A model generated the notes under the pieces. The model was given only the letters and a program-made list of their open reading frames with translations, was not told where the DNA came from and made no database searches. The position numbers and the translations under genes were made by a program. Shown here piece by piece: positions 27,894 to 31,571 of a stretch of 64,000 nucleotides of DNA (positions are counted from its first letter, which is position 1; every line of letters starts with the position of its first letter). The DNA comes from Escherichia coli O157:H7 (GTDB lineage: Bacteria > Pseudomonadota > Gammaproteobacteria > Enterobacterales > Enterobacteriaceae), in NCBI RefSeq assembly GCF_013167455.1, contig NZ_CP038328.1. One strand, given 5' to 3'.

Positions 27894-28826
27894 ATGTGGT
27901 CAGAATATTCACTCGAAGTTGTTGATGCGGTAGCGCGTAATGGTAGTTTTAGCGCTGCGGCACAGGAGCTGCATCGCGTTCCTTCTGCGGTCAGCTATAC
28001 CGTGCGTCAGCTGGAAGAGTGGCTGGCGGTGCCGCTGTTTGAACGACGGCACCGTGATGTGGAGCTGACCGCTGCCGGAGCGTGGTTTCTCAAAGAAGGG
28101 CGCTCTGTTGTCAAAAAAATGCAGATCACCCGCCAGCAATGTCAGCAGATAGCGAACGGCTGGCGCGGTCAGTTAGCTATCGCAGTGGATAATATTGTCA
28201 GGCCAGAACGTACACGGCAGATGATCGTTGATTTTTATCGCCATTTTGATGATGTCGAACTTCTTGTCTTTCAGGAAGTGTTCAACGGTGTCTGGGATGC
28301 GCTTTCCGACGGGCGCGTGGAACTGGCGATTGGCGCAACACGCGCGATTCCGGTAGGCGGTCGTTATGCCTTCCGGGATATGGGGATGCTAAGCTGGAGT
28401 TGCGTTGTTGCCAGCCATCACCCGCTGGCGTTGATGGATGGCCCGTTCAGCGATGATACGTTGCGCAACTGGCCGTCGTTGGTGCGCGAAGACACCTCGC
28501 GAACGCTACCTAAGCGTATTACCTGGTTGCTGGATAACCAAAAAAGAGTTGTCGTGCCTGACTGGGAATCATCGGCAACCTGTATCTCGGCAGGATTATG
28601 CATAGGGATGGTGCCAACACATTTCGCCAAACCGTGGCTTAATGAGGGGAAGTGGGTAGCATTAGAACTGGAAAACCCCTTTCCGGATTCGGCATGTTGT
28701 CTGACATGGCAGCAAAATGATATGTCGCCTGCGTTAACCTGGTTGCTTGAGTATCTCGGCGATAGTGAGACGCTGAATAAGGAGTGGCTGCGGGAGCCGG
28801 AAGAGACTCCCGCAACGGGTGATTAA
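27894..28826 (+). CDS. ydhB: LysR-family transcriptional regulator YdhB (PunR)
   Basis: 310 aa; N-terminal HTH ([23 protein letters not shown]); 4-nt convergent overlap with purR. Confidence 0.8.
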
Positions 28827-29848
28827 CGACGATAGTCGCGGAACGGGCCGTCAGCCACGGAGCGGCGTTCAATCAAGCGCGGATGCACTTCAATGGACTG
28901 CGGTTCTTCACGTTTGTTGACTATACGATCCAACAACATGTTGAACGCTGTTTCACCCAACGAATCTTTTGGCTGATGGATTGTTGTCAGCGCCGGCGTA
29001 AAATAGCGGGCGTTGCGCACGTTATCATAACCGATCAGCGAAACATCCTGCGGGACGCGCAGCCCCATTTCATCAGCAGCACAAAGTGCGCCCATTGCCA
29101 TGATATCGCCACCACAGAAGACGGCAGTAGGGCGATGCGGCTGCGACAGGATTTGCTGCATGGCGCGATAACCGGATTCAGGTTCAAAGTCACCCTGCAC
29201 AATCCAGCTTTCCGGCACCTTGATCATTGCTTCTTCCATCGCCTTCATAAAACCGGCAAGGCGGCCTGCGCCAGTGTTACGTTCCAGCGGGCCGGGGATA
29301 ACGCCGATTTCGCGGTGACCGCGTTCAATCAGATAACGCCCGGCCATGTAGCCGCCTTCGAACGCGTTATCAATGACCGCATCGGTGAAGTCAGCTTTTG
29401 CTTCACCCCAGTCCATCACCACCATTGGGATATGGCGATACTCTTCCAGCATCGCCAGCAACGGCTCTGGGTACTCAGAACACATCACCAGCAGACCATC
29501 GACGCGTTTTTGCGCCATCATCGACAGATAAGCCCGCTGTTTCTCAAGATTGTTCCACGCATTACCCAGAATCAGGGTGTAACCTTTCTGGAAGCAATTT
29601 TTTTCAACTGCTTCAATGATCTCGGCAAAATAGGCCGCTTCGCTGCTGGTCGCTAGCAAACCGATAGACTTGGTGTGGTTAACCTTCAGGCTACGCGCCA
29701 CCGCGCTAGGGGAGTAGTGTAATTCTTTGATCGCTGCCCACACGGCGTTGCGCGTTTCTTCAGCGACGAAACGTGTTTTGTTGATCACGTGTGACACAGT
29801 TGTAGTGGAAACGTTTGCTCGTTTCGCTACATCTTTTATTGTTGCCAT
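28823..29848 (-). CDS. purR: Purine repressor PurR (LacI family)
   Basis: 341 aa; [33 protein letters not shown]. Confidence 0.95.
29807..29820. promoter_or_regulatory. PUR-box-like operator inside purR coding region
   Basis: ggaaacgtttgctc contains the AAACGTTTGC core of the PurR operator; about codons 10-14 of purR. Confidence 0.4.
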
Positions 29849-29894
29849 TCCATTTCACTCCAGACCCTAACTTCAGCTCCTGCAAAATCGCAAG

Positions 29895-29907
29895 GTAAAC
29901 GTTTGCC
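29895..29907. promoter_or_regulatory. PUR-box-like operator in purR leader
   Basis: gtaaacgtttgcc with AAACGTTTGC core, about 50 nt upstream of purR start. Confidence 0.4.
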
Positions 29908-30146
29908 TTTACACACCTTACGCACAACAAAAGTGTTGCGGTACGCCGGAAAAACGACACGGAGCGTCAGGAAGGGGTCAATGGCCAGTACGCAAATAGT
30001 GTAAGCGTGGAATTTTGGCCGATCTTGACGAAAAGGGGAAGTGGTAAAAACACTTATCATTATAAATGACGGGAGATTTTTTCATCACAGTGTGTAAAAA
30101 TGCGTAATATCACTTTTTGTGTGGTAATAAAAAAGGAGAAAACTTG

Positions 30147-30236
30147 ATGAGCACCGACCTTAAATTTTCACTGGTAACAACGATTATCGTCCTCGGTTTG
30201 ATCGTGGCCGTGGGTTTGACTGCCGCGCTGCACTGA
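30147..30236 (+). CDS. ynhF: Small hydrophobic protein YnhF (29 aa, single TM)
   Basis: ATG 30147 preceded by aaaaggagaa; encodes MSTDLKFSLVTTIIVLGLIVAVGLTAALH; below ORF-track length cut-off. Confidence 0.7.
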   Translation: MSTDLKFSLVTTIIVLGLIVAVGLTAALH

Positions 30237-30401
30237 TTTCCTCTCGAGGGAGCGCGTTCTCCCTCGCATCTCCTTCCTGTTTGTTAGCAAAATGGCAAAA
30301 GTGTTTTCTCTTTTTGTTATTTTCATTTTTTTGTGATTGCTGTCATGCTTTCGCCACTTTAATGAATATCGCGTAATGACGCGAAGAGGTGGAGATAAGG
30401 C

Positions 30402-31571
30402 ATGAAAATTAACTATCCGTTGCTGGCGCTGGCGATTGGCGCGTTTGGTATCGGGACAACGGAGTTCTCGCCAATGGGCTTGTTGCCCGTCATTGCGCGC
30501 GGTGTGGATGTCTCGATTCCCGCTGCCGGAATGTTAATCAGTGCCTATGCAGTTGGCGTAATGGTTGGCGCGCCGCTGATGACGCTTCTACTTTCTCATC
30601 GTGCCCGCCGCAGTGCGTTGATTTTCCTGATGGCAATTTTCACGCTCGGCAACGTACTTTCCGCCATCGCGCCGGATTATATGACCCTGATGCTTTCACG
30701 CATTTTGACCAGCCTGAATCACGGAGCATTTTTTGGTTTGGGTTCAGTCGTGGCCGCAAGCGTGGTGCCAAAACATAAACAGGCCAGCGCAGTTGCCACT
30801 ATGTTTATGGGGTTAACCCTGGCAAATATCGGTGGCGTGCCGGCGGCGACCTGGTTGGGTGAAACCATCGGCTGGCGGATGTCATTTCTGGCAACGGCGG
30901 GGCTGGGAGTGATTTCAATGGTAAGTCTGTTCTTCTCATTACCTAAAGGTGGTGCAGGGGCACGACCTGAAGTGAAAAAAGAGCTGGCGGTATTAATGCG
31001 TCCGCAGGTGCTGTCTGCATTGCTGACGACGGTACTGGGAGCTGGTGCAATGTTTACTCTCTACACCTATATCTCTCCGGTACTGCAAAGTATTACCCAC
31101 GCAACACCGGTGTTCGTCACGGCAATGCTGGTGCTGATTGGTGTCGGATTCTCTATCGGTAACTATCTCGGCGGCAAACTGGCAGATCGTTCAGTTAACG
31201 GCACGTTGAAAGGCTTTTTGTTGCTGCTGATGGTGATTATGCTGGCAATCCCGTTCCTGGCCCGCAATAAGTTCGGCGCAGCTATTAGCATGGCGGTGTG
31301 GGGCGCTGCAACCTTTGCGGTCGTACCGCCGTTACAGATGCGCGTGATGCGTGTCGCCAGTGAAGCGCCAGGTCTGTCTTCATCAGTCAATATTGGTGCC
31401 TTTAATCTTGGAAATGCGCTGGGAGCAGCTGCTGGTGGTGCGGTAATTTCCGCTGGGCTGGGATACAGCTTTGTGCCGGTGATGGGGGCGATTGTCGCGG
31501 GACTGGCATTATTGCTGGTGTTTATGTCAGCCAGAAAACAACCTGAAACAGTTTGCGTTGCTAACAGCTAA
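30402..31571 (+). CDS. ydhP: MFS transporter YdhP
   Basis: 389 aa; 12-TM profile. Confidence 0.8.
   Translation: MKINYPLLALAIGAFGIGTTEFSPMGLLPVIARGVDVSIPAAGMLISAYAVGVMVGAPLMTLLLSHRARRSALIFLMAIFTLGNVLSAIAPDYMTLMLSRILTSLNHGAFFGLGSVVAASVVPKHKQASAVATMFMGLTLANIGGVPAATWLGETIGWRMSFLATAGLGVISMVSLFFSLPKGGAGARPEVKKELAVLMRPQVLSALLTTVLGAGAMFTLYTYISPVLQSITHATPVFVTAMLVLIGVGFSIGNYLGGKLADRSVNGTLKGFLLLLMVIMLAIPFLARNKFGAAISMAVWGAATFAVVPPLQMRVMRVASEAPGLSSSVNIGAFNLGNALGAAAGGAVISAGLGYSFVPVMGAIVAGLALLLVFMSARKQPETVCVANS

What the first reader, a model, noticed from the sequence alone, without database searches (positions are those of the whole stretch)
30147..30236. 29-codon hydrophobic small ORF (ynhF) between purR and ydhP with a strong ribosome-binding site
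ATG at 30147 is preceded at optimal spacing by aaaaggagaa and encodes MSTDLKFSLVTTIIVLGLIVAVGLTAALH, a single predicted transmembrane helix. It is too short for the supplied ORF track and matches the small protein YnhF as I recall it. Small membrane proteins like this are easily missed and often modulate transporters or sensors.
Basis: partly seen in the sequence, partly recalled or inferred. Interest (0 to 1): 0.35.

Follow-up and report, generated by a model that had tools for sequence, protein, structure and literature searches.

The report
Known oxidase subunit gene cydH (ynhF)
The 29-codon ORF is real and is the well-known E. coli gene cydH (formerly ynhF), which encodes a one-helix membrane peptide already seen in solved structures as the fourth subunit of the cytochrome bd-I respiratory oxidase, so the finding is correct but ordinary.

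Summary
ATG 30147 to TGA 30236 (+) encodes MSTDLKFSLVTTIIVLGLIVAVGLTAALH. AAGGAG lies at 30133-30138, 8 nt before the ATG.

- **Identity:** the peptide is 100% identical to chain H of PDB 6RKO (YnhF/CydH). It passes the NCBIfam equivalog NF033411 (50.2 bits, cutoff 30). RefSeq annotates it as cydH, and it is present in 5,424 of 5,426 complete E. coli genomes.
- **Conservation:** I sampled 80 Enterobacteriaceae species through the neighbouring gene purR, not through the ORF. Every one has an ungapped 29-codon homologue about 297 nt upstream of purR. All have an ATG start and a stop at codon 30. dN/dS is about 0.12.
- **Function (published):** cryo-EM and mass spectrometry show the peptide is made, keeps its formyl-Met, and binds CydA between TM helices 1 and 9. 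There it shields heme b595 from the membrane.

The generic guess of "transporters or sensors" is superseded, because the partner is a terminal oxidase.

Side observations:
- Rfam's "sRNA" STnc550 is essentially this mRNA plus the intergenic region.
- A published FNR ChIP-seq peak maps onto the gene's start.
- IS1 sits 21 nt upstream of the ATG in two strains.

Novelty: already known. Interest: low.

The parts
30147..30236 (+). cydH (ynhF) coding sequence: 29 codons plus a TGA stop. It encodes a single-pass membrane peptide, the fourth subunit of cytochrome bd-I.
   Evidence: Translation. 100% identity to PDB 6RKO chain H. NCBIfam NF033411 scores 50.2 bits against a cutoff of 30. RefSeq annotates it as cydH. 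dN/dS is 0.117, against pN/pS of 1.4 and 1.9 in the shifted frames.
30133..30138 (+). Shine-Dalgarno sequence AAGGAG, 8 nt upstream of the ATG.
   Evidence: Read directly from the sequence. AGGAG is kept in 68 of 81 species and a GGAG/GAGG/GGGG core in 81 of 81. The spacer is 8 nt in 70.
30245..30266 (+). Hairpin 9 nt after the stop codon: CGAGGGAG, a 6-nt loop (cgcgtt), then CTCCCTCG. No T-run follows directly. It is probably a 3'-end stabiliser or weak terminator of the cydH transcript.
   Evidence: A perfect 8-bp stem in the MFE fold. RNAalifold on 81 species predicts 6 of these pairs, each with at least one compensatory change. The stems are conserved and the loop varies. The consensus terminator scan did not call it, because it lacks a T tract.
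29937..30126 (.). Highly conserved purR-cydH intergenic block holding the divergent promoter and regulatory DNA. It forms the 5' part of Rfam 'STnc550'.
   Evidence: Column identity is 65-93% across 80 species, equal to or above that of the ORF. No covariation-supported RNA structure was found. An anaerobic sigma-70 ChIP-seq peak at U00096.2 1,735,714 maps to about window 30002 by my coordinate conversion (PMC3688515 Table S1). The ynhF mRNA has a mapped TSS and is trimmed at its 5' end by RNase G (PMC4191395).
30093..30101 (+). Candidate extended -10 element (TG-n-AAAAAT) for a cydH promoter. It would place the TSS near 30108. This is inference only.
   Evidence: TGTGYAAAAATG at 30091-30102 is nearly invariant in 80 species, while the -35 region is not conserved. 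The consensus promoter scan found nothing on the + strand. It has not been checked against TSS data.
30144..30157 (.). FNR-like site TTGATGAGCACCGA (2 mismatches to TTGAT-N4-ATCAA) overlapping the cydH start codon.
   Evidence: It is the best FNR-like match between 30040 and 30300. The published FNR ChIP-seq summit 'ynhF/purR' at 1,735,542 maps to about window 30174 (PMC3688515 Table S5). The non-coding TTG before the ATG is kept in 77 of 81 species. The right half-site is coding, so its conservation is confounded.

Best explanation
The ORF is cydH (formerly ynhF, also called cydY). It is translated from the ATG at 30147 using the AAGGAG Shine-Dalgarno sequence. The product is a 29-residue, about 3-kDa peptide that keeps its formyl-Met and inserts into the inner membrane as one transmembrane helix. 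The peptide assembles with CydA, CydB and CydX as the fourth subunit of the cytochrome bd-I ubiquinol oxidase. It sits in a cleft between CydA TM helices 1 and 9. There it covers heme b595 and closes off the lateral membrane-side access that serves as the O2 entry site in the Geobacillus enzyme. O2 therefore reaches heme d through a separate narrow channel.

Shown by published work on this exact sequence: translation, membrane location, and presence and position in the complex.

Shown here: identity, strong purifying selection on the peptide, and conservation of the RBS and synteny.

Inferred: the functional consequence, channel blocking and substrate selectivity, is deduced from structures. 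Regulation by oxygen through the conserved upstream DNA is also inferred, with only an FNR ChIP peak as direct support.
For: - **Identity:** 29 of 29 residues match PDB 6RKO chain H and 7 further entries. The NCBIfam equivalog 'cytochrome bd-I oxidase subunit CydH' scores 50.2 bits against a cutoff of 30. The gene is annotated cydH in RefSeq, and RBS plus ORF are present in 5,424 of 5,426 complete E. coli genomes at 95% identity or more.
- **Selection:** 80 of 80 purR-anchored Enterobacteriaceae loci carry an ungapped 29-aa homologue. ATG start and stop at codon 30 hold in 81 of 81. Column entropy by codon position is 13.5, 8.1 and 36.4. Pooled dN/dS is 0.117, while the shifted frames give pN/pS above 1.
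- **Literature:** YnhF was identified by MS in purified bd-I and modelled as a single helix that blocks the O2 channel (PMC6853902). It binds between CydA TM1 and TM9, is encoded outside the cyd and app operons, and is absent from bd-II (PMC8951039; PMC8585947). New 2.4-2.6 A structures again show the CydA/B/X/H heterotetramer (bioRxiv 10.1101/2025.10.10.681541). Top-down MS gives 100% coverage with retained formyl-Met (PMC12529367).
Against: - Nothing contradicts the identity.
- The functional role of blocking access to heme b595 is a structural inference. None of the papers I could read reports a cydH deletion phenotype.
- E. coli bd-II and the mycobacterial bd oxidases work without such a subunit, so the subunit may be modulatory rather than essential.
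- A dual membrane topology and a two-hybrid signal with RNase E have been reported. The authors attribute the latter to the bare TM helix (PMC13232886).
- Conservation along the helix does not show significant alpha-helical periodicity (p = 0.14), so my data do not independently show a single conserved binding face.
Confidence: 0.96

Rival explanations
1. The peptide's main role, or an additional one, is to modulate another membrane protein such as the adjacent MFS transporter YdhP, in the way AcrZ or MgtS modulate their partners.
For: ydhP follows on the same strand, 165 nt downstream. The hairpin after cydH lacks a T tract, so read-through is conceivable. CydH gives two-hybrid signals with an unrelated membrane-associated protein.
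Against: The peptide is found stoichiometrically in bd-I structures from two independent groups and in later high-resolution maps. The two-hybrid signal is attributed to non-specific TM-helix contacts. No data link it to YdhP.
Confidence: 0.04
2. The locus is a non-coding or dual-function Hfq-associated small RNA (Rfam STnc550), and the ORF is incidental or secondary to a riboregulatory role.
For: Rfam RF02081 STnc550 matches 29849-30239 at 396 bits against a gathering score of 48. The family name comes from the STnc series of sRNA candidates in the Salmonella Hfq co-IP sequencing study, although STnc550 itself does not appear in the text I could read.
Against: Model positions of about 297-385 are simply the cydH RBS and CDS. 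The ORF evolves as a protein, with dN/dS of 0.12, and the protein is detected. RNAalifold on 81 species finds no covariation-supported structure in the leader, only 7 invariant pairs. The same study already reclassified STnc250 and STnc570 as small-peptide mRNAs.
Confidence: 0.03
3. The ORF is a regulatory leader peptide (uORF) whose translation controls expression of the downstream ydhP gene. On this view the act of translation matters, not the peptide.
For: It is a short ORF upstream of a same-strand gene, with a hairpin between them.
Against: Leader peptides are constrained at a few regulatory codons, not along their whole length. Here 8 residues are invariant, and the length and hydrophobic character are fixed across 53 distinct peptide variants. 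The peptide accumulates as a stable subunit.
Confidence: 0.02

Closest known systems
CydH / CydY / YnhF, fourth subunit of E. coli cytochrome bd-I (PDB 6RKO chain H; NCBIfam NF033411)
   Same: Everything tested. The 29-aa sequence is identical. The equivalog HMM is passed. The genomic position between purR and ydhP matches the one described in PMC6853902 and in RefSeq.
   Different: Nothing. This is the same gene.
CydX (37 aa), with its relatives AppX and CydS: the other single-helix subunit of bd oxidases
   Same: It is also a single-pass peptide of fewer than 40 aa that binds CydA through hydrophobic contacts, and it was also missed by early annotation.
   Different: CydX is encoded in the cydABX operon, binds CydA TM1/5/6 on the opposite side near heme b558, and is needed for assembly and stability. 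CydH is unlinked to the operon, binds TM1/TM9 next to heme b595, and is thought to be functional rather than structural. No sequence similarity was detected: only the YnhF family was hit and only CydH chains in the PDB.
   Same: Size, single TM helix, strong RBS, and being overlooked by ORF callers. The resemblance to AcrZ and MgrB rests on established knowledge. MgtS is described in PMC12529367.
   Different: The partner is a respiratory terminal oxidase, and the peptide is a constitutive structural subunit seen in the complex, not a conditional regulator of a transporter or kinase.
Rfam RF02081 STnc550 ('Enterobacterial sRNA')
   Same: It covers the same DNA, 29849-30239, at 396 bits.
   Different: The Rfam entry is typed as a non-coding sRNA gene. 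The evidence here says the 3' third is the cydH CDS and the 5' part is conserved promoter and regulatory DNA with no covariation support for the modelled helices.

Membership tests
CydH/YnhF (NCBIfam NF033411, equivalog) | Full-length match to the 29-position family HMM above the curated cutoff of 30 bits | tested here: met
   50.2 bits, E = 1.7e-13, residues 1-29 aligned to profile positions 1-29 of 29.
CydH/YnhF (NCBIfam NF033411, equivalog) | Sequence identity to the chain experimentally assigned as the fourth subunit in cytochrome bd-I structures | tested here: met
   29 of 29 residues identical to 6RKO chain H. The same sequence occurs in 8 PDB entries and 12 chains.
CydH/YnhF (NCBIfam NF033411, equivalog) | Peptide of about 29 aa with one transmembrane helix | tested here: met
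   Kyte-Doolittle 19-residue maximum of 2.53 over residues 10-28. The length is fixed at 29 codons in 81 of 81 sequences. It is modelled as a single helix in the published structures.
CydH/YnhF (NCBIfam NF033411, equivalog) | Orphan gene outside the cydABX and appCBX operons, lying between purR and ydhP in E. coli | tested here: met
   Context is purR(-) / cydH(+) / ydhP(+) in the window and in RefSeq. The divergent purR linkage at about 297 nt holds in 80 of 80 Enterobacteriaceae species.
CydH/YnhF (NCBIfam NF033411, equivalog) | The host genome encodes a long-Q-loop (L-subfamily) cytochrome bd-I, cydAB(X) | not testable with these tools
   cydAB is not in the 64-kb window and whole genomes could not be queried by protein. 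That E. coli carries cydABX is established knowledge, and the co-occurrence with L-subfamily oxidases is stated in PMC8951039.
CydH/YnhF (NCBIfam NF033411, equivalog) | Physical binding to CydA (TM1/TM9 cleft) that shields heme b595 | not testable with these tools
   Published for the identical sequence. My indirect test, helical periodicity of conservation, was inconclusive (p = 0.14).
Rfam RF02081 STnc550 (non-coding sRNA) | Match to the covariance model above the gathering score | tested here: met
   396.1 bits against 48.
Rfam RF02081 STnc550 (non-coding sRNA) | Non-coding transcript with a conserved secondary structure | tested here: not met
   The model contains the cydH RBS and CDS, and that region is under protein-level selection. 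RNAalifold on 81 species gives no covarying pairs in the leader.

The most novel reading that the evidence does not exclude
The cydH transcript (Rfam STnc550) might be more than an mRNA. It could be a dual-function RNA, or the unusually conserved purR-cydH intergenic block could be a regulatory hub. Such a hub would include an FNR site overlapping the cydH start codon, and it would keep an unlinked subunit gene in step with the ArcA/FNR-controlled cydABX operon and perhaps with purine status through PurR. My data do not exclude this. FNR is cross-linked there in vivo, the leader is conserved as strongly as the ORF, and no function has been assigned to most of it.
Probability: 0.1. Interest if true: 0.4.

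Novelty: already known. Interest (0 to 1): 0.1.

Why it matters
As a discovery it does not matter much. The gene is in RefSeq, UniProt (A5A618), NCBIfam and the PDB. It is a useful positive control for the scan, because a tool-less reader correctly spotted and named a 29-codon gene that ORF tracks skip.

Biologically, CydH is of interest because cytochrome bd is a prokaryote-specific oxidase and a drug target. CydH distinguishes bd-I from bd-II and from the Geobacillus and mycobacterial enzymes by covering heme b595.

Three questions remain open, and none was raised by the finding itself. What is the phenotype of a cydH deletion? How is an unlinked subunit gene co-regulated with cydABX? Why is the 300-nt upstream region so strongly conserved?

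Tried and rejected
- **Protein-database searches:** impossible, because the peptide is below the 40-aa and 30-aa minima. I used a purR-anchored genome scan instead.
- **Pfam:** no family.
- **Primary papers:** Hemm 2008, Hemm 2010 and Guan 2011 are not held. Statements about SPA tagging, low-oxygen induction and formyl-Met are therefore taken second-hand from PMC6853902 and independently from PMC12529367.
- **Ribosome profiling:** the supplement of the Weaver et al. preprint is not held, and a second small-protein paper does not mention the gene.
- **Text search for 'STnc550':** no papers. It is not in the main table of Sittka 2008.
- **Consensus promoter and terminator scan:** no + strand promoter or terminator for cydH.
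- **Leader as structured RNA:** rejected for lack of covariation.
- **Consensus FNR, ArcA, CRP and mar-box searches in the leader:** nothing with 2 mismatches or fewer. Only the PurR box stands out.
- **Post-stop hairpin energy:** not exceptional in its 66-nt context (z = -1.02). Its support is comparative, not energetic.
- **Helical periodicity of residue conservation:** not significant (p = 0.14).
- **N-terminal extension from the in-frame TTG at 30117 (39-aa ORF):** rejected. It would run through the SD, and upstream in-frame starts are not conserved in position. Top-down MS covers the intact 29-aa peptide completely and finds its initiator Met formylated.

Full report
**1. Observation**

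The window at 30147-30236 (+) reads ATG, 28 further codons and TGA. AAGGAG lies at 30133-30138, and 8 nt (AAAACTTG) separate it from the ATG. Residues 10-28 give a Kyte-Doolittle mean of 2.53, well above the values usual for a membrane-spanning helix. The flanking genes are purR (28823-29848, minus strand) and ydhP (30402-31571, plus strand).

In 100 first-order Markov simulations of the window, short ORFs (25-50 codons) with a strong SD are common, at about 3.8 per 64 kb. The same ORFs with a TM-grade hydrophobic stretch are expected 0.01 times per window.

**2. Identity**

- The peptide is identical at 29 of 29 positions to PDB 6RKO chain H, 'Uncharacterized protein YnhF / Cytochrome bd-I ubiquinol oxidase CydH'. 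The same sequence occurs in 8 entries.
- It passes the NCBIfam equivalog NF033411 (small_mem_YnhF, 'cytochrome bd-I oxidase subunit CydH') at 50.2 bits against a cutoff of 30.
- Pfam has no model for it.
- The 552-nt intergenic region is present in 5,425 of 5,426 complete E. coli genomes, with cydH annotated under it.
- The RBS plus ORF alone is present in 5,424, and 5,403 of those are at 99% identity or more.

**3. Independent test of coding status**

The peptide is too short for the protein-search tools. I therefore sampled relatives through the neighbouring gene purR, so that the sample was not chosen for having the ORF. This gave 80 species of Enterobacteriaceae, with PurR 92-100% identical.

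- All 80 contain an ungapped 29-residue homologue (48-100% identical), divergently oriented about 297 nt from the purR start.
- Across the 81 sequences the start is always ATG. The stop is always at codon 30 (TGA 64, TAA 17), and there are no internal stops.
- There are 79 distinct nucleotide sequences but only 53 distinct peptides.
- Column entropy by codon position is 13.5, 8.1 and 36.4.
- Pooled Nei-Gojobori estimates give pS 0.61, pN 0.135 and dN/dS 0.117. The two shifted frames give pN/pS of 1.4 and 1.9.
- M1, L5, T11, T12, L16, I19, V20 and A26 are invariant.
- A G-rich SD core is present in 81 of 81, and the GGAG-to-ATG spacer is 8 nt in 70.

**4. What it does (literature)**

Thesseling et al. 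2019 found an unexpected fourth, single-helix subunit of about 3 kDa in the cryo-EM map of E. coli bd-I. They identified it by MS as YnhF and noted several properties. It is made at low oxygen, keeps its formyl-Met, and is encoded between ydhP and purR rather than in the cyd operon. They proposed that it blocks the O2 channel used in the Geobacillus enzyme (PMC6853902).

Reviews summarise this work together with the parallel Safarian et al. 2019 structure. CydH/CydY binds the cleft between CydA TM helices 1 and 9 and shields heme b595. It occupies the site where mycobacterial bd binds a menaquinone, and it is absent from bd-II (PMC8951039; PMC8585947; PMC12648545). New 2.4-2.6 A structures again show the CydA/B/X/H heterotetramer (bioRxiv 10.1101/2025.10.10.681541). 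Top-down proteomics detects the intact formylated peptide with 100% coverage (PMC12529367).

So translation, localisation and the partner are all demonstrated. The functional consequence, gating of ligand access, is a structural inference. I found no deletion phenotype in the papers I could read.

**5. Surroundings**

*The leader is strongly conserved.* The 300 nt between purR and cydH are conserved as strongly as the ORF or more so, at 80-93% column identity over 29937-30035.

*Rfam overlap.* Rfam classifies 29849-30239 as the sRNA STnc550 (396 bits). However, model positions of about 297-385 are just the cydH RBS and CDS. RNAalifold on the 81 sequences finds no covarying pairs in the leader. 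It does find a 6-pair hairpin just after the stop codon (8 bp in E. coli, 30245-30266), with compensatory changes at every pair. I read the leader conservation as DNA-level regulatory constraint.

*What the leader contains:*
- The PurR operator O1 at 29893-29908, 98% conserved.
- Very probably the purR promoter.
- An anaerobic sigma-70 ChIP-seq peak that maps to about 30002.
- A nearly invariant TGTGYAAAAATG at 30091-30102, which could be an extended -10 for cydH. This last point is inference only.

*Published evidence on the transcript and its regulators:*
- The ynhF mRNA has a mapped TSS and is trimmed at its 5' end by RNase G (PMC4191395).
- A MarA/RamA ChIP peak lies between purR and ynhF in Salmonella (PMC10268841).
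- FNR ChIP-seq has a peak 'ynhF/purR', with no FNR-dependent expression change in anaerobic glucose medium (PMC3688515 Tables S5 and S9).

*The FNR peak.* By my coordinate conversion its summit falls at about window 30174. The best FNR-like sequence between 30040 and 30300 is TTGATGAGCACCGA (30144-30157, 2 mismatches), which overlaps the start codon. The non-coding TTG that completes the TTGAT half-site is kept in 77 of 81 species. This is suggestive of cydAB-like FNR control but unproven.

**6. Rivals**

A transporter or sensor modulator, a non-coding sRNA, and a leader peptide for ydhP were each considered. Each is disfavoured by the structural, proteomic and selection evidence. Details are in the Rival explanations section.

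**7. Verdict**

Novelty: already known. Interest: about 0.1. The residual questions concern regulation of an unlinked oxidase subunit gene and the status of Rfam STnc550.

Noticed in passing
window 29849-30239 (+): Rfam RF02081 'STnc550', typed as an enterobacterial sRNA, matches at 396 bits. It consists of the purR-cydH intergenic region plus the cydH RBS and CDS. No covariation supports its modelled helices in 81 species. It looks like a small-peptide mRNA filed as an sRNA, as already happened with STnc250 (ypfM) and STnc570 (yneM).
   Followed up: partly
window 30144-30157; ChIP summit at about 30174: A published FNR ChIP-seq peak 'ynhF/purR' (Myers 2013, Table S5) maps onto the start of cydH. 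The best FNR-like site, TTGATGAGCACCGA, overlaps the start codon and uses the conserved non-coding TTG. That study saw no FNR-dependent expression change.
   Followed up: partly
window 30118-30126; L082 1778-2545: In E. coli strains YZLc1-3 and EC17CM6, both from chickens, a 768-bp IS1 is inserted 21 nt upstream of the cydH ATG, with a 9-bp target duplication (TGTGTGGTA). It separates the RBS and ORF from the entire conserved leader. This is a natural test of whether the leader is needed for expression.
   Followed up: partly
window 29937-30126: The intergenic DNA upstream of cydH is conserved at 65-93% across 80 species, as strongly as the coding sequence or more so. The purR-to-cydH distance is almost fixed at about 297 nt. 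Only part of this is explained by the PurR box and the presumed promoters. An anaerobic sigma-70 ChIP-seq peak maps to about 30002.
   Followed up: partly
window 29893-29908 and about 29805-29819: These are the two PurR operators of the autoregulated purR gene: AGGTAAACGTTTGCCT in the 5' UTR (98% conserved) and GTGGAAACGTTTGCT inside the coding region. GalR also binds both in ChIP-chip.
   Followed up: partly
window 30327-30350: A conserved block, TTTTGTGATTGCTGTCATGCTTTC (about 87% column identity), lies between the cydH hairpin and ydhP. It is presumably the ydhP promoter or an operator. The only consensus promoter hit in the region lies on the minus strand here.
   Followed up: no
window 27894-28826 (+) and upstream: The neighbouring genes are annotated punR (a LysR-type activator) and punC (a purine nucleoside transporter), next to purR. 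This forms a purine-related cluster adjacent to the oxidase subunit gene. sodB and mepH lie downstream of ydhP.
   Followed up: no
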